Positions 22,301-34,300 of a stretch of DNA of 64,000 bases are shown one piece after another. A program made the position numbers. Where the stretch lies: assembly GCA_951406725.2 (NCBI GenBank), contig OX597817.1, positions 43,028,001 through 43,092,000 on the forward strand, read 5' to 3'. How positions within the stretch are numbered: the stretch's first letter is position 1; each line of letters opens with the position of its first letter. Origin of the DNA: Octopus vulgaris. Lineage: Eukaryota.

Positions 22301-25300
22301 TACTCAGTTTTCTTATTCATTTTTGTTGGAAAGTTCTTAAATAAGATCAATTGAGGATAGTTCCATATCTATGTTATTTCAAGCAAAATGTCTAACAGTA
22401 AGCTGTTTTACTACTTCACTTTTCAAGATGAATCTGTACAGTCATTAATTATTGAGTGTTCTATTTTTTTTAGATGAAACTATAAATTGAGCCTTTATTT
22501 TTAAATTATGAGCAATAATGCTCTTATCCCTTATGCCACTAATTTCAGTTTTTGTTGCAGAACACTTATACAACACTTTTTAAAATTGGAGCACCACCTT
22601 TAGTTAAGCAAATCGACCCCAGGATTTATTCTTTGTAAGCCTAGTACTTATTCTATTGGTCTCTTTTGCTGAACGTAAACACACCACCATTGGTTGTCAA
22701 ATGATGTTGGGAGAACAAACACACATATATATGATGGGCTTCTTTCAGTTTCTGTATACCAAATCCACTCACAAGGCTTTGGTCAGCCCGAGGCTATAGT
22801 AGAAGACATTTGCCCAAGGTGCCACACAGTGGAACTGAACCCAGAACCATGTGGTTCGTAAGCAAGCTACTCACCACACAGCCACTCCTATGCCTATTGA
22901 GAATCTATTTCACATAAAACATGGGTGTTGGTGCCACATAAAAAGCACCTGTATCAGTGCCGCATAAAAGTACCTTGTACACTGTAAGTGGTTGGCATTA
23001 GAAAGGGCATCCAGCTGTAGAAACCATGCCAAAACAAACATGGAACCCAAGCAGCGTAGCAAAAGACGTTTATAACGCTATTTCTGTAAATTGCCTCAAA
23101 GAAAGCAGTGTTTATATTAAATGTTTTGAACATAGAAGGTAATCATTTACCTATCAAAGTGTATTAGCATTTAAGGTTAAGTACACATTTAGGACAACAC
23201 TTTTTAACCTATGTAATTTCTAGTGTCAGCTACTATCTCGGGTCAGGTAAAATTTCCCCCATCATTCCTGATGATTTTATTTAATATAATTTATGCACCC
23301 TTAAAGTTTATTTTTATTCTTGTGAGAAAAATGCATAAATTACATTGGTTTATACAGTATATCACACAGGAGAAAAACAAGGCATCATGTTCATATAGAT
23401 TCATCATTTATTTACCAAATTGGAAGTTGTGAGAATTATAAAGTAATTCACAGCAAAAATAGGTTTTCTGTTCTTTAAACCTCTTTGATGTTTAAGATGG
23501 CATATGGACTTATATTCACAAGATAGACCAGCTTTCTGTAATTAAGAAGAAAAAAAGTTTCAATGAACAATGAAAAATATTAGACTTTATGAAAATATCA
23601 AATGTTTAACCCTTTTGTTATAATTATTACGCTGGAACAAAGTTACGTGAAATTCTGAGGTTTTAATTGAGATCACTGTATAAGTTTGTATCACAGAACC
23701 GAGAACAACCTCATTTGGGTTAGTGTCAAAAGCGTTGACGAATTTGTACACATTTTTCACATGAATAAATCAACTTTTTGTGTGGCAATAAATTTTTTTT
23801 AAATAACAGAAAAAAACAAGAGGCTCTAGAGATTGAGATACAAAGGTATTGCAGAAAACTGGAGGCTTTAACTTCTGGACCCTTATTTATGCAATGACAT
23901 ACGAGCTTGGATGAAATTTTCGATTATAATACAGGTGGTTAATTTGGGACAAAGGGTGTTTCTTAGCAGAAAGACTCGACCTGAAGATTATGTAACATTT
24001 AATGATTTCATGTTTAGCATAAGAATAAACTCGCTCAGTTTTAACTTTTCTTCAATGAGAGCCAGAGGCATTTACTGACAGCAGGCAACTGTCTGCACAC
24101 TGCACCATCAGACGCAAATTACCACATCATTGCAAGTTTGATCATCTTCAAGCACTACATAGACAAATATAAATGTAATTAAACGGTAAGCTATTGTAGT
24201 AATGATATATTAATCCTGGTTTTAAGTATTGTGATACATATCTCTGAAACATTACAATATTCCAAGAATAATCAGTCATAAAATCTTAGAATCTGTTATA
24301 TCACAATACTACACAGTGGCTGAGCTACGAAATCCTCATTGGCACTGTTATATTGCAATACTACACAGTGGCTGTGTGAGCATCTCATCCTCGTTGCCAC
24401 TGTTATATCGCATGTTCGGATGACCTCTACTCAACTCTCAACGTCTAGGCTTCTCCCTCTATATCTACGTGTTGGGCTAGTCTACTTCATCGTCTGGGGG
24501 TGTTGACACAACAGAATCATAAAATCACACCAAAGTATGAGGCAAGGATAAATAATTGTCACCATACATATGTTAAAAAGAAATTAGAAAAGCACAAGCC
24601 ATTGGAAAACAACTGATTATTTAACATTGTGAAATCCTCCTATTTAGGCTAGTTTATTAATAAGCTGAATAGACGGCCTTCATACTAAAATCACAATTTA
24701 GGTTTTACTACAAATAGTAACAGTACTTTTAACCACATCTACAATATCCCAGTCAAGATACATTATTCTGCCAGCACACAAACCTAATTACTTTTGCTGA
24801 TGATTATTATGATAAAATTACATCTCTTCTTTCCTGGACAATTTCTTTGCCATAAAAATTTTTATTCCTTGTTTTATCTAATCATATTTTATGCTACACA
24901 TTTATTTTGCTGTACTTTACAATTTATAACCAGTTGGTATTAGTTTCATTAAAAAACTACAATAACAGCAAAACTTTGACTACACTCAAGCTTAATCCTT
25001 CTTTTGCTGGTTACTGTTATGGTAAATAAAGATCATGCAACTTTGCTTATTCCCTTGCACCACATAAAACCAGAGTTCAGTAAGGTATCATGATAATTTT
25101 GTTTGCTTACCATACTGGTATAGGTTGAACAACTTTTAGAGATAGTGTTTTACAACCAGAAGCCTTTGTAATAACTTCTTACAACTTGGTATATCAATAT
25201 TATGTACATCAGTCTAAACCCCAAATTATTAAAATACAAGAATAAACTTTCCATATTACATAAATTTTAAAAAATCAATTTTTCAGTTTCAATGACAGTT

Positions 25301-31300: not shown

Positions 31301-34300
31301 TACCAATAACTTGCTCAGTTCCAATGTTCTTCAATGAGCCTGTAGCATTTTGACAATAGGCAGTAGTCTGCGCACTGCACCATCAGATGCGAATTACAGC
31401 ACCATTGTCAGTTGATGACACAATTAAAGTATCAATTATAATTGAAAAAAATTTACATCCATTTTACAGTTGTTGAGAAAAGAATTAAGCTTCACGTAGA
31501 GCAGGGATCGGCAACTTTTCATCAACTGGAGGCCACATTATACCATTTCCAAGTGGGAGAGGGCCACATGCATGAAATATTACTTGCCCACTTTTTGTTT
31601 CTATATATTTTCTGCAGAAGTCAATTATAATCTTCTTTGGGATTTATTCAAAAGCAAATAACTATTCCCTTTTGTTTCTAATTCAAGAGTTCCATATGAT
31701 AATAAGGACTAACTGCTATGAAAATGCAGGTATGACTCACTTTGCAACCACATGGCTTCAAGATCAGTCCCATTGCATGTCTTTCTCCTACTATAACTCT
31801 GGGCCAAACAATGCCTTTTGAGTCTATTTGATACATTGCATGTTTGGGCACATGCTCCATTGAATTTTGTGTAACCTCCACCACTGCTCAACAGCTGGTG
31901 TTGCTTTGTTTATGCTCCTATAATTTAGTGATTTCAACAAAAGAGACAAATAGAATAAGTACCAGAGTTTAAAGAAAAAAGGAAAACTGAATGAAATTAG
32001 GGTATTTTTGCCATAAATATAATGGGTATTTGGGACTAATGGCTAAAAACACATTACATTATATATTGACTTTATATATCACTATAGTTTTAGCTTTTTT
32101 TTTTTTGTCAAGTTACATTCCAAGTACTACTGTAATACATTGTTATATTTGTTTTACAAAATCACTATATAAACTTTTAAGAGACATAGTGCGTTTTTAA
32201 TTAGAAATATTGTAGCAAAAAAAGTATCGATGAAAAGAACTTACCATATTCTGTATACAAGCAGGCTAAAACCTTCTGTATGTTTTGCTAAACGCAATTA
32301 AATGGCGGTTCACCACCATCGTTATATTTTGCAGCAATGACAGTTCTGATGTCTTTCATGGTAGTCTAAAAATTACAAAAATACATGTTAGCATATTTAT
32401 TAAGCATATAAATTGTCATTTTGTTAATAATATATTCAGTAAGTACATTAAATAAGAAAACTAAAATATTGTAAAAAATTATTACATTTTCTGATTACAA
32501 TTCAAAATGGAAATATTGAATTCTTAGAATCGATAACACTGTAGAAGCCACTTATTGAGATCATTTTAGGATAGAGCCTTTTAGATAACAGTAACTGGTA
32601 GATAACATTAAGCAGATGATATAACAATATTCTGTGCATGTCTCAGAGCCACTAATTTCAATAACTAAATGATAATAATGATTTAGTAACACTGAACAAG
32701 ATCATCATCAGCTGCTATCAATTCATTTGAAGAGTGGCATAGCATTTTTACTTATTTCACTTGACATGGTCCAAACTTTAGCAGAAATAGTACAATATGC
32801 CAGTGCTGCCTTGACTGGCTCTTGTGTCAGTGGCATGTAAAAAGCACCCACTATACTCACGGAGTGGTTAGCGTTAGGAAGGGCATCCAGCTGTAGAAAC
32901 ACTGCCAGGTCAGACTGGAGCCTGGTGCAGCCTCCTGGCTTCCCAGACCCCAGTTGAACTGTTCAACCTATGCTAGCATGGAAAACGGACGTTAAACGAT
33001 GAAGATGATGATGATTCAATACATTATAGCACTTAGATTTGTACTTCAGGATATCATCATCATCATTTAACATCTGCCTTCCATGCTGGCATGGGTTGAA
33101 AGTTTCTACAGGGTCCATGAATTGGAGAACTGCATCAAACTCCACTATCTGCTTTAAAATGGTTTCTATGGCTGGATGCCCATCCTAATGACAACCGTTT
33201 TACAGAGTGTATTGGGTGCTTTTTTCTTGGGTGCCAGCACTAGTGAGATGGCCATACAACTAGCAAGATTAAAAAGACCCCCTTAACTGAGCGAGAGCAC
33301 AACTGGTGCTCTGACAGCAACAACATTGAGGGTTCCAGTTGATCCAATCAATGTTAACAGCTTGCTCATGAAATTAACAAGCAAGTGGCTAAGCACTCCA
33401 CAAACAGGCATACCCTCAACATAGTTCCCGAGGAGATTCAGTATGATACAAACTGTGACAAGGCTGGCCCTTTGAAATAAAGATACCACTCATTTTTGCT
33501 GGTTGAGTGAACTGGAACAACATGGAATAAAATGTCTTGCTTAAAGCCACAACGCACTGCCAAGAATTGAACTTTGCAACATTACAATCGTGAGCCAAAT
33601 ACTCTAACCACTAAGCCATGTGCCTTCACTGGGTAGGAGTATAGTAAAAAGAGAGGCAGCATAATGCTAGATGTTGAGTGATTGAAGTAGGATATAGGGA
33701 TGGGAAATGGTTTCTTGCTGTAAAGGAGATACAGTGCTACCCTCTTTTACTCGTTTCAGTCATGTGACTGTGGCCATGCTGGAGTACCGCCTTTAGTCAA
33801 GCAAATCAACCCCAGGATTTATTCTTTGTAAGTCTAGTACTTATACTATTGGTGTCTTTTGCTGAACCGCTAAGTTATGGGGACATAAACACACCAGCAT
33901 TGGTTGTCAAGCGATGTTTGGGTGGGGGGGACAAACACAAACACATATATATATATATATACATACAACGGGCTTCTTTCAGTTTCCATCTACCAAATCC
34001 ACTCACAAGGCTTTGGTCGGCCCAAGGCTATTGTAGAAGACACTTGCCCAAGGTGCCATGCAGTGGGACTGAACCCGGAACCATGTGGTTCGTAAGCAAG
34101 CTACTTACCACACAGCTACATAATATAAAGGTGGGTGGGAGTAATTAGGGAGAAACTGGAAAGAGTAATAAAGATGATGACGCCAAGGTATAAGAAGGTA
34201 AATAGAAGAGAAAGTAGAAGTAGATCAGGAAGGGTGGGCAGGTAGAGTTTGCAAGAGCATGGGGTAATTGTAAGAAATGGTTTGAGATGAAGGCAGTGAA

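What the first reader, a model, noticed from the sequence alone, without database searches (positions are those of the whole stretch)
23200..32290. Splicing continues after the stop codon: bifunctional transcript and possible NMD target
Seen: a strong donor (G|GTAAGT at 32245/32244) lies 43 nt after the TAG, and all nine snoRNAs are downstream on the same strand. Candidate acceptors lie about 40-105 nt 3' of several copies (e.g. 23981, 25371, 29989) and a candidate donor at 25110. Known: animal snoRNAs are usually one per intron, and exon junctions more than ~50 nt past a stop can trigger NMD. Inference: either a chain of non-coding 3' UTR exons uncouples snoRNA output from protein output, or several snoRNAs share one intron (polycistronic, unusual in animals). 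I could not fix the exon structure by eye.
Basis: inference. Interest (0 to 1): 0.7.

Follow-up and report, generated by a model that had tools for sequence, protein, structure and literature searches.

The report
Octopus SNORD16 snoRNA array host gene
Nine tandem copies of a ribosomal-RNA methylation guide (SNORD16 family) lie downstream of a tiny three-exon gene in an octopus genome, an arrangement that looks like the familiar snoRNA host genes of flies and mammals rather than something new.

Summary
The TAG (32290-32288), the ATG|GTAAGT donor 43 nt later, the named acceptors and donor, and nine same-strand SNORD16-family copies (31413-24028, minus strand) are all there. Eight copies look intact and copy 1 is degenerate.

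Upstream I found a TATA-like hexamer, a 16-nt oligopyrimidine (5'TOP-like) start near 39911, and three short exons. All three have GTAAGT donors, and their phases give a 60-codon ORF ending at that TAG. Exon-wise searches found no homologue. The joined protein was not searched.

New evidence for splicing: in 7 of 9 copies (4 of 6 independent flank types) the first YAG after the snoRNA stem ends 41-49 nt downstream (p about 4e-4, or 5e-3 after allowing for the post hoc window).

Best reading (confidence 0.5): a TOP-type multi-snoRNA host gene, mostly one snoRNA per intron. Its spliced product carries many junctions after an early stop and is probably NMD-prone, as in GAS5/UHG, Drosophila Uhg or SNHG14. 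Rivals: shared long introns with splicing-independent release, or a separate transcription unit.

No transcript data or other cephalopod genomes were available, so the exon chain stays inferred. I rate it a new member of a known kind, of modest interest.

The parts
39942..39947 (-). TATA-like hexamer (TATAAT), 36 nt upstream of the oligopyrimidine run
   Evidence: Sequence and script. Function is inferred.
39896..39911 (-). 16-nt oligopyrimidine run starting with C (CTCCTCCTTCCTTTTC); candidate 5'TOP transcription start
   Evidence: one of 6 such runs of at least 14 nt on the minus strand of the window, and the only one with a TATA-like hexamer within 45 nt upstream. The start site itself is not testable here.
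39746..39911 (-). Candidate exon 1: a 125-nt leader without ATG, ATG at 39786-39784 (an in-frame TAA lies directly upstream), then 13 codons plus 2 nt, with donor ACC|GTAAGT (GT at 39745-39744)
37729..37792 (-). Candidate exon 2 (64 nt): acceptor ttatttctag|G, 1 nt plus 21 codons, donor AGT|GTAAGT
32245..32365 (-). Candidate exon 3 (121 nt): acceptor aatttttag|ACT, 25 codons, TAG at 32290-32288, 43 nt of trailer, donor ATG|GTAAGT. All three frames are closed.
32196..32201 (-). ATTAAA hexamer 44 nt inside the putative intron; possible proximal poly(A) signal that competes with the 32245 donor
   Evidence: Such hexamers are frequent in AT-rich DNA, so its use is only inferred.
31308..31413 (-). 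SNORD16 copy 1, degenerate: C box ATGGTG, two broken terminal-stem pairs, guide changed at two positions
   Evidence: 27.1 bits; (94.3 bits with my own model, against 127-145 for the others).
30090..30199 (-). SNORD16 copy 2
   Evidence: 50.1 bits.
29280..29388 (-). SNORD16 copy 3: guide and boxes intact, central element diverged as in copy 1
   Evidence: 43.6 bits, gathering score 45.
28377..28487 (-). SNORD16 copy 4
   Evidence: 55.1 bits.
27485..27595 (-). SNORD16 copy 5
   Evidence: 50.9 bits.
26901..27011 (-). SNORD16 copy 6
   Evidence: 52.3 bits.
25998..26108 (-). SNORD16 copy 7
   Evidence: 54.2 bits.
25412..25522 (-). SNORD16 copy 8
   Evidence: 52.3 bits.
24028..24138 (-). SNORD16 copy 9
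   Evidence: 52.3 bits.
25400..28630 (-). Young tandem duplication: a unit of about 1.48 kb holding two snoRNA copies each, with copy spacings of 892, 584, 903 and 586 nt
   Evidence: pairs of 300, 300 and 156 nt at 99, 98 and 99% identity, spaced 1477, 1487 and 1475 nt apart.
31260..31262 (-). Candidate acceptor after copy 1 (ttttatag|A; last intron base 31261, 47 nt after the stem)
29969..29989 (-). Three candidate acceptors after copy 2 (last intron bases 29989, 29979, 29969; 101-121 nt after the stem)
28329..28331 (-). Candidate acceptor after copy 4 (tttcag|T, 48 nt after the stem). Equivalent sites: 27436 after copy 5, 26853 after copy 6, 25949 after copy 7.
27129..27435 (-). Candidate non-coding exon between copies 5 and 6, ending at donor GCAG|GTAAAT. 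Its twin lies at 25948-25640 between copies 7 and 8. The introns that follow would be 276 and 269 nt and each would hold one snoRNA.
   Evidence: Sequence only.
25111..25370 (-). Candidate non-coding exon between copies 8 and 9: acceptor tttcag|G with last intron base 25371, donor ATG|GTAAGC. Stops in all frames, judged by eye.
23290..23980 (-). Candidate terminal exon after copy 9 (acceptor cttcag|G, last intron base 23981), with AATAAA at 23412, 23318 and 23312
   Evidence: The 3' end is inferred.

Best explanation
This is an RNA polymerase II snoRNA host gene on the minus strand of an octopus genome.

Proposed mechanism:
1. Transcription starts near 39911 at a 5'TOP-like oligopyrimidine run behind a TATA-like box.
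2. Three short exons (ending at 39746, 37729 and 32245) are spliced through GTAAGT donors. They carry a 60-codon ORF that stops at TAG 32290-32288.
3. The primary transcript runs on for about 8.5 kb through nine tandem SNORD16-family units.
4. Most of the eight intact units sit alone in a short intron, about 45 nt upstream of its 3' splice site. They are released by splicing, debranching and exonucleolytic trimming down to the 7-bp terminal stem.
5. The mature 111-nt box C/D RNAs guide 2'-O-methylation of the small-subunit rRNA adenosine that corresponds to human 18S A484.
6. The spliced exon chain is mainly a by-product. It has several exon junctions far behind an early stop codon, so it is expected to be short-lived through NMD.

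Whether the 60-codon ORF also yields a useful small protein is open. I put that at about even odds.

Shown by tools: the snoRNA identity, integrity and copy number; the splice-site-like motifs; the ORF phases; the fixed spacing of the first YAG.
Inferred: the transcription start, actual splicing, the 3' end, NMD and translation.
For: snoRNA identity:
- Nine RF00138 matches, 7 of 9 at or above the gathering score.
- The alignment to the Rfam consensus shows that the guide next to box C is shared.
- C and D boxes, the guide and a 7-bp terminal stem are intact in 8 of 9 copies.
- Similarity stops abruptly at the stem ends, and the flanks of different copy types are unrelated.
- SNORD16 guides 18S A484 in human cells (PMC6124571, passages read).

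Host gene:
- The TOP-like run is the only one of 6 on this strand with a TATA-like hexamer upstream.
- The 125-nt leader contains no ATG.
- Three of the 17 minus-strand GTAAGT sites in the window are the donors of exons whose phases fit a 60-codon ORF.
- Only 117 of 2635 ATGs in the window (4.4%) are followed by 60 or more sense codons.

One snoRNA per intron:
- The first YAG after the stem ends at 47, 84, 25, 48, 49, 48, 49, 41 and 47 nt for copies 1-9.
- That puts 7 of 9 copies, or 4 of 6 independent flank types, within 41-49 nt. The chance for a random position is 0.073, giving a binomial p of 3.9e-4, or 4.6e-3 after a 12-fold correction for choosing the window post hoc.
- Donor-like sites lie upstream of copies 5-9 (scores 8.1-9.0). 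They give introns of 269 and 276 nt around copies 8 and 6.

Known biology:
- Animals mostly follow one snoRNA per intron (PMC11028025, passage).
- Most snoRNA hosts are 5'TOP genes, and both coding and non-coding hosts are enriched among NMD targets (PMC4233243, passages).
Against: - No transcript evidence of any kind was available.
- The donor motif alone is no more frequent than chance.
- The acceptors behind the copies have poor pyrimidine tracts: 8-10 of 15 positions. They fell below the 2.5-bit cut of my position-weight scoring, which was built from recalled vertebrate frequencies. The acceptors of exons 2 and 3 and of the neighbouring PWWP gene are T-rich.
- A 41-49 nt distance to the 3' splice site is shorter than the mammalian optimum of about 50 nt upstream of the branch point (PMC5519232, passage).
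- Copies 2 and 3 do not fit the spacing.
- The spacing window was chosen after seeing the data, and the flank types may not be fully independent. Copy 1 against copy 8 gave z = 2.0.
- ATTAAA at 32201 could end the mRNA before the array.
- The ORF has no detectable relative in exon-wise searches: Pfam, PDB, and the 5.8-billion-protein set with the exon-2 frame. That set does hold octopus proteins.
Confidence: 0.5

Rival explanations
1. The array lies in one or a few long introns (for example 32244 to 25371 or to 23981). The snoRNAs are cut out of the unspliced or excised intron by endonucleases and then trimmed, independently of one-to-one splicing. This would be an intronic polycistronic cluster.
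For: - The terminal stems are long for box C/D RNAs: 7-10 bp. Long external stems can make box C/D assembly independent of splicing (PMC5519232, passage).
- The founding EndoU enzyme was found as an activity that releases snoRNAs from introns in Xenopus. The papers cited for it concern U16, which is SNORD16 (PMC11961692, passage and reference list).
- The acceptor-like sites behind the copies are weak.
- Copies 2 and 3 lack a YAG at the common distance.
Against: - The clustering of the first YAG at 41-49 nt in 4 of 6 independent flank types has no explanation under this model.
- Good donors recur between copies.
- Animals mostly keep one snoRNA per intron (PMC11028025, passage).
Confidence: 0.2
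2. There are two separate units. The three-exon small-ORF gene ends at a poly(A) site just after the stop (ATTAAA at 32201), and the 32245 donor is unused or minor. The snoRNA array is then a separate non-coding host transcript, or a set of transcripts, with its own start downstream of 32.2 kb.
For: - ATTAAA lies 86 nt after the TAG, with a T/G-rich stretch behind it.
- GGTAAGT is not enriched in the window.
- The first copy after the donor is a degenerate relic, so the working array begins 2 kb from exon 3.
Against: - No TOP-like run or other start-like feature lies between 32.2 and 23 kb on this strand.
- No motif is shared upstream of the different copy types, which argues against a promoter for each copy.
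- Exon 3 ends in the same strong GTAAGT donor as exons 1 and 2.
- ATTAAA and AATAAA are common by chance in DNA of 35% G+C.
Confidence: 0.2
3. The array is not a working locus: either decaying pseudogene copies, or a collapsed or expanded assembly artefact of one or two real copies.
For: - Copy 1 is degenerate.
- Units within 25.4-28.6 kb are 98-99% identical, as an assembly error or a very recent duplication would be.
Against: - Eight copies keep boxes, guide and stem, while flanks of different types share no similarity. This is the pattern of selection on the RNA.
- Copies 2, 3, 8 and 9 have unique flanks and cannot be assembly duplicates.
Confidence: 0.03

Closest known systems
Vertebrate SNORD16 (U16), Rfam RF00138, hosted in an intron of the ribosomal protein L4 gene (called L1 in Xenopus)
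   Same: - The same RNA family by covariance model.
- The same guide next to box C, followed by CUGA.
- By eye, 15 consecutive nt of the central element match the stretch targeted by the SNORD16 oligonucleotides in PMC6124571 (compare).
- The expected target is the adenosine equivalent to 18S A484.
   Different: - Nine tandem copies. That vertebrates have a single copy is recalled, not checked here.
- The host is not an L4 gene. No Ribosomal_L4 or any other host domain appeared in 295 of the 307 minus-strand frames scanned between 32.2 and 56.7 kb.
- The host assignment to RPL4 is recalled. Only the title of the L1-intron paper was seen, in a reference list.
Non-coding multi-snoRNA host genes: mammalian UHG/SNHG1 and GAS5, and the Drosophila Uhg genes
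   Same: - A TOP-like start, short exons, and only a short ORF that stops early.
- Many introns, each apparently holding one snoRNA.
- A spliced RNA expected to be NMD-sensitive (PMC4233243, passages).
- In Drosophila, 42% of box C/D snoRNAs lie in seven Uhg lncRNA genes (PMC11014333, passage).
   Different: - All units here are copies of a single snoRNA family.
- The ORF (60 codons) is longer than chance readily gives (4.4% of ATGs) and spans three in-phase exons, so a coding function is not excluded.
- Expression and decay are untested.
SNURF-SNRPN / SNHG14 with the SNORD116 and SNORD115 arrays (mammals)
   Same: - Tandemly repeated units, each giving one copy of the same box C/D RNA from its own intron: 29 and 48 consecutive introns in SNHG14 (PMC11608373 and PMC5748676, search-listing abstracts only).
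- From recall: the array lies downstream of a small protein-coding part of a long transcript.
   Different: - Those snoRNAs are orphans without a known rRNA target. Here the guide is a conserved rRNA guide.
- There are nine units here, not dozens.
- Nothing here bears on imprinting.
Protein-coding snoRNA hosts that also yield NMD-sensitive RNAs (for example TAF1D and EIF5 in PMC4233243)
   Same: One gene may give both a translatable RNA and intron-derived snoRNAs, with NMD uncoupling the two outputs.
   Different: In those genes the snoRNAs mostly lie within the coding part, and NMD isoforms arise by alternative splicing. Here the whole array would lie behind the stop codon.

Membership tests
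SNORD16 (Rfam RF00138), box C/D snoRNA | Covariance-model score at or above the curated gathering score (45 bits) | tested here: met
   7 of 9 copies score 50.1-55.1 bits. Copy 3 scores 43.6 and copy 1 scores 27.1, so these two are not members by this criterion alone.
SNORD16 (Rfam RF00138), box C/D snoRNA | Box C, box D and a terminal stem that brings them together | tested here: met
   8 of 9 copies have RTGATGY ... CTGA and a 7-bp stem. Copy 1 has ATGGTG and two broken pairs.
SNORD16 (Rfam RF00138), box C/D snoRNA | A guide upstream of the internal CUGA that pairs with small-subunit rRNA at the A484-equivalent site | tested here: inconclusive
   The guide is identical to the Rfam consensus stretch in 8 of 9 copies. 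This species' rRNA is not in the window, so pairing to its own target could not be checked. The A484 assignment comes from PMC6124571 (passages).
SNORD16 (Rfam RF00138), box C/D snoRNA | Location in an intron of the ribosomal protein L4 gene, as in vertebrates (recalled) | tested here: not met
   No ribosomal-protein domain appeared in 295 of the 307 minus-strand stop-to-stop frames of 25 aa or more between 32.2 and 56.7 kb. This is a feature of the vertebrate locus, not of the RNA family.
Non-coding multi-snoRNA host gene (UHG/GAS5/SNHG, Drosophila Uhg) | Transcript starts with a 5' terminal oligopyrimidine tract | tested here: inconclusive
   A 16-nt C-started pyrimidine run lies 36 nt behind a TATA-like hexamer and 125 nt before the first ATG. 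The real start site cannot be seen with these tools.
Non-coding multi-snoRNA host gene (UHG/GAS5/SNHG, Drosophila Uhg) | Each snoRNA lies wholly inside its own intron | tested here: inconclusive
   The first YAG lies 41-49 nt after the stem in 7 of 9 copies (p = 3.9e-4, or 4.6e-3 corrected), and donor-like sites lie between copies. There is no cDNA evidence, and copies 2 and 3 deviate.
Non-coding multi-snoRNA host gene (UHG/GAS5/SNHG, Drosophila Uhg) | No conserved protein-coding capacity; only a short ORF that stops early | tested here: inconclusive
   The 60-codon ORF has no hit in exon-wise searches (control). The joined protein was not searched, no orthologous loci could be compared, and an ORF this long is somewhat unusual (4.4%).
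Non-coding multi-snoRNA host gene (UHG/GAS5/SNHG, Drosophila Uhg) | The spliced RNA is unstable and stabilised by blocking translation or NMD | not testable with these tools
   This needs cycloheximide or UPF1-depletion experiments.
SNHG14-type tandem snoRNA array behind a coding gene | Tandemly repeated units, each with one copy of the same snoRNA | tested here: met
   Nine copies at spacings of 584-1384 nt, including a duplicated unit of about 1.48 kb at 98-99% identity.
SNHG14-type tandem snoRNA array behind a coding gene | The array is part of the same transcript as the upstream coding exons | not testable with these tools
   Only the donor at 32245 and the lack of start-like features downstream speak for this.
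Intronic polycistronic snoRNA cluster with splicing-independent release | Several snoRNAs within one intron | tested here: inconclusive
   This cannot be excluded without cDNA. The YAG spacing argues against it for most copies.
Intronic polycistronic snoRNA cluster with splicing-independent release | Long external stems that allow assembly without splicing | tested here: met
   Stems are 7-10 bp. The rule comes from PMC5519232 (passage).

The most novel reading that the evidence does not exclude
The 60-codon ORF encodes a real small basic protein, and a tandemly amplifying SNORD16 array has colonised its 3' untranslated region. The choice between a proximal poly(A) site (ATTAAA at 32201) and the 32245 donor would then switch each transcript between two fates: a stable protein-coding mRNA, or snoRNA production with an NMD-cleared by-product. 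That would be a splice-versus-polyadenylation switch setting the dosage of a conserved rRNA methylation guide in a cephalopod.
Probability: 0.15. Interest if true: 0.55.

Novelty: new member of a known kind. Interest (0 to 1): 0.33.

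Why it matters
If confirmed, this would extend a known host-gene design to molluscs: a TOP promoter, an early stop, one snoRNA per intron, and growth of the array by tandem duplication. That design is described so far for mammals and Drosophila. It would also show that a deeply conserved rRNA guide left its ribosomal-protein host and was amplified about eight-fold.

It also gives a compact test case for two questions. Does NMD in a lophotrochozoan read downstream exon junctions? 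How does snoRNA copy number relate to methylation at one rRNA site?

It does not open a new kind of mechanism. One search for snoRNA, Octopus and cephalopod found 16 papers holding all three terms. None of the 10 listed is about cephalopod snoRNA genes, judging by title and abstract start. That is a narrow search and not proof that nothing is in print.

Tried and rejected
1. Looking for a conventional protein-coding host.
- I scanned 295 of the 307 minus-strand stop-to-stop frames of 25 aa or more between 32.2 and 56.7 kb against Pfam.
- Twelve frames were dropped: five low-complexity frames at 51.8-52.0 and 54.0-54.4 kb, the frame at 32726-32962, and six short frames between 32204 and 32867.
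- The only credible hit was a Pif1 2B domain (2.6e-15) at 49664-50212, which I read as a Helitron-type fragment. An eIF-6 hit at E = 0.09 is chance level among 150 queries.

2. Position-weight scoring of splice sites, from recalled vertebrate frequencies.
- It did not single out a chain of exons.

3. Search for an extra exon between exons 1 and 2.
- It assumed the wrong phase for exon 1 and is void.
- The direct joins are in phase. Cassette exons are not excluded.

4. Homology of the flank after copy 8 to the flank after copy 9.
- The MAFFT alignment looked suggestive, but local alignment against shuffles gave z = 0.4. Rejected.

5. Homologues of the ORF, searched exon by exon.
- The exon-2 frame gave nothing among proteins of 29-95 aa or 96-2000 aa.
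- PDB gave nothing for exons 2 and 3.
- The ESM Atlas gave only a 0.85 score to bacterial TctC clusters, which is noise level.

6. A recalled resemblance of the ORF to the UPF0390 / Leydig-cell-tumour 10-kDa protein family is only a lead from memory. No call supports it.

7. Other box C/D candidates.
- A simple scan and Rfam found none in the two upstream introns.

Not checked:
- The joined spliced protein was not searched, folded or printed.
- The genome collection holds only bacteria and archaea.
- The phage, plasmid and E. coli sets are irrelevant here.
- As a result, no orthologous cephalopod locus or transcript could be examined.
- No supplementary files were opened.

Full report
**The observation**

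Reading the minus strand confirms every coordinate in the finding.
- The TAG lies at 32290-32288.
- The donor ATG|GTAAGT has its last exon base at 32245, 43 nt after the stop.
- Acceptor-like sites end at 23981, 25371 and 29989.
- A donor-like ATG|GTAAGC lies at 25111|25110.

Rfam finds nine SNORD16 (RF00138) matches, all on the minus strand.
- Seven reach the gathering score of 45 bits, at 50.1-55.1 bits.
- Copy 3 scores 43.6 bits and copy 1 scores 27.1 bits.
- A covariance model built from the nine copies finds these nine and nothing else credible in the 64 kb. The tenth match has E = 8.4.
- With their terminal stems the copies span 31413-31308, 30199-30090, 29388-29280, 28487-28377, 27595-27485, 27011-26901, 26108-25998, 25522-25412 and 24138-24028.

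**The snoRNA copies**

- Aligned with 150-nt flanks, similarity is confined to the stretch from AACTTGC to GCAAGTT, which forms a 7-bp terminal stem.
- Eight copies keep box C, the guide followed by CTGA, box D and the stem.
- Copy 1 has ATGGTG in place of box C, two broken stem pairs and two changes in the guide, so it is probably dead.
- The guide next to box C is the stretch conserved in the Rfam consensus.
- SNORD16 guides methylation of 18S A484 in human cells, helped by extra pairing of a central element (PMC6124571, passages). By eye, that central element is also kept in seven of the copies. Copies 1 and 3 share a diverged version.
- The array grew by tandem duplication. A unit of about 1.48 kb with two copies is repeated at 98-99% identity.
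- The downstream flanks of copies 1, 2, 3, 8 and 9 show no significant similarity to each other or to the copy 4-7 type.

**The gene upstream**

The finding gave no gene model, so I looked for one.
- Pfam scans of 295 of the 307 minus-strand frames between 32.2 and 56.7 kb gave no host-like domain.
- By reading the sequence I found two more exons with the same GTAAGT donor as the exon that holds the TAG.
- Exon 1 ends at 39746 and exon 2 spans 37792-37729.
- Exon 1 has its ATG at 39786-39784, directly behind an in-frame TAA. It carries 13 codons plus 2 nt. Exon 2 has 1 nt plus 21 codons. Exon 3 has 25 codons and the TAG.
- The lengths 41 + 64 + 75 sum to 180 nt, so the phases fit and the ORF has 60 codons (exon-wise translations).
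- Upstream of the ATG lies a 125-nt leader without any ATG. It starts at a 16-nt pyrimidine run beginning with C (39911-39896). This is the only one of six such runs on this strand with a TATA-like hexamer about 36 nt upstream.
- I read this as a 5'TOP-type promoter. Most snoRNA hosts are 5'TOP genes (PMC4233243, passage).
- These three donors are 3 of the 17 GTAAGT sites on the minus strand of the window.

**Is the ORF a protein?**

- In favour: only 117 of 2635 ATGs in the window (4.4%) are followed by 60 or more sense codons. The ORF starts at the first ATG of the leader and crosses two junctions in phase.
- Against, or neutral: exon-wise searches found nothing. These were Pfam, PDB and the 5.8-billion-protein set with the frame that holds exon 2, searched among near and longer lengths.
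- As a control, a COMMD1 exon from the same window finds Octopus bimaculoides COMMD1 at 94% identity. Octopus annotations are therefore in that set. This also identifies the window as coming from an octopus.
- The ESM Atlas result was noise.
- I searched the spliced model exon by exon only. The joined protein was not searched or folded, so homology of the whole 60-residue product remains unchecked.
- A resemblance to a small conserved protein family that I recall from memory is untested.

**Is the array spliced out one copy per intron?**

- The donor motif is not enriched. GGTAAGT occurs 4 times against 7.5 expected.
- My own position-weight scoring did not resolve a chain of exons.
- A simpler feature is informative. 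The first YAG after the terminal stem ends at 47, 84, 25, 48, 49, 48, 49, 41 and 47 nt for copies 1-9.
- Seven of the nine copies, representing four of six independent flank types, therefore fall within 41-49 nt.
- A random minus-strand position has its first YAG in that range with probability 0.073.
- An AG-free stretch ending at a fixed distance behind each snoRNA is what a 3' splice site coupled to snoRNP assembly would give.
- Donor-like sites lie upstream of copies 5-9: GCAG|GTAAAT at 27129 and 25640, GCAG|GTGAAT at 27794 and 26317, and ATG|GTAAGC at 25111.
- With these sites, the introns around copies 6 and 8 would be 276 and 269 nt.

Caveats:
- These acceptors have weak pyrimidine tracts compared with those of exons 2 and 3 and of the neighbouring PWWP gene.
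- The distance is shorter than the mammalian optimum of about 50 nt upstream of the branch point (PMC5519232, passage).
- Copies 2 and 3 do not fit.
- Nothing here is transcript evidence.

**NMD**

- The first junction would lie 43 nt after the stop.
- In the chain model, eight or more further junctions follow.
- Whether a mollusc uses junction-dependent NMD is not something I could check.
- In human cells both coding and 'non-coding' snoRNA hosts are strongly enriched among NMD targets, and the spliced RNA is viewed as a by-product (PMC4233243, passages).

**Alternatives**

- The 7-10 bp external stems could allow splicing-independent assembly (PMC5519232, passage). U16 is the classic case linked to endonucleolytic release in Xenopus (PMC11961692, passage and reference list). 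A shared-intron cluster therefore remains possible.
- ATTAAA at 32201 could end the small-ORF mRNA before the array, which would then need its own start. I found no TOP-like run between 32.2 and 23 kb and no shared upstream motif among copy types.

**Comparison and verdict**

- The RNA is a member of SNORD16.
- The locus works most like the multi-snoRNA host genes: UHG/GAS5 (PMC4233243), the Drosophila Uhg genes (PMC11014333, one passage), and the SNHG14 arrays of SNORD116 and SNORD115 (PMC11608373, PMC5748676, PMC4742849; listing abstracts only).
- It is not the vertebrate arrangement in a ribosomal protein gene.
- I rate it a new member of a known kind, of modest interest.
- Only cDNA data and orthologous cephalopod loci can fix the exon chain, the coding status of the ORF and NMD. 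None of these were within reach.

Noticed in passing
window 56471-62600, + strand: Start of a gene with a PWWP-domain exon (60416-60706; Pfam PWWP 2.4e-14). The first exon begins at the ATG at 56471. From recall, the N-terminal motif plus PWWP looks like MSH6. Its start lies 16.5 kb upstream of, and divergent from, the putative host-gene start.
   Followed up: partly
window 2243-2626 and 7388-7624, - strand: COMMD1 exons (COMMD1_N 9e-16 and 1.2e-16, COMM domain 4e-07). The best database hit is Octopus bimaculoides COMMD1 at 94% identity. The window therefore comes from an octopus, possibly a species other than that cluster's representative. This is the next gene downstream of the array on the same strand.
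   Followed up: partly
window 9594-9687, - strand: A tRNA-like element. Rfam tRNA scores 58.3 bits, but ARAGORN gives no amino acid and an odd anticodon call. At 92-94 nt it may carry an intron or be repeat-derived.
   Followed up: no
window 13907-15529, - strand: An open 540-aa reverse-transcriptase frame (RVT_1 3.1e-30, plus a PHD-like finger at 2.1e-04). This is a rather intact non-LTR retrotransposon between the array and COMMD1.
   Followed up: no
window 49664-50212, - strand: A Pif1 helicase 2B domain (2.6e-15) in a 183-aa frame. I read it as a Helitron-type fragment.
   Followed up: no
window 46000-47900, - strand: A G+C-rich block (0.47-0.54) with several frames of 55-94 aa that look retroelement-like by eye. 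The two frames I tested had no Pfam hit at 1e-3.
   Followed up: partly
window 54341-54661, + strand (also 1216-1506 and 36537-36950, + strand): A Mos1/mariner-type transposase HTH (HTH_48 4.2e-07). The two other pieces look mariner-like by eye but had no Pfam hit at 1e-3.
   Followed up: partly
window 25696-25763, 26631-26700, 27183-27250, + strand: Inside the array spacers, on the opposite strand: a repeated 68-70 nt stretch with ATGATGT ... CTGA and a 5-6 bp closing stem, so box C/D-like. Rfam gave no match there. It may be chance carried along by the duplication.
   Followed up: no
window 28930-29150, - strand: A repeat inserted between copies 3 and 4 that I recall as a typical octopus SINE. 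Its first bases create the strongest donor-like site of the array (G|GTGAGC at 29138, score 10.3), which could be exonised.
   Followed up: no
window 30700-31000, - strand: A 75-aa frame between copies 1 and 2 that looks by eye like the C-terminal end of a retrotransposon protein. It had no Pfam hit at 1e-3. It holds the best-scoring acceptor-like site of the region, at 30933.
   Followed up: no
window 40140-40460, - strand: Two copies, about 240 nt apart, of a CpG-containing direct repeat just upstream of the putative start site. Seen by eye.
   Followed up: no
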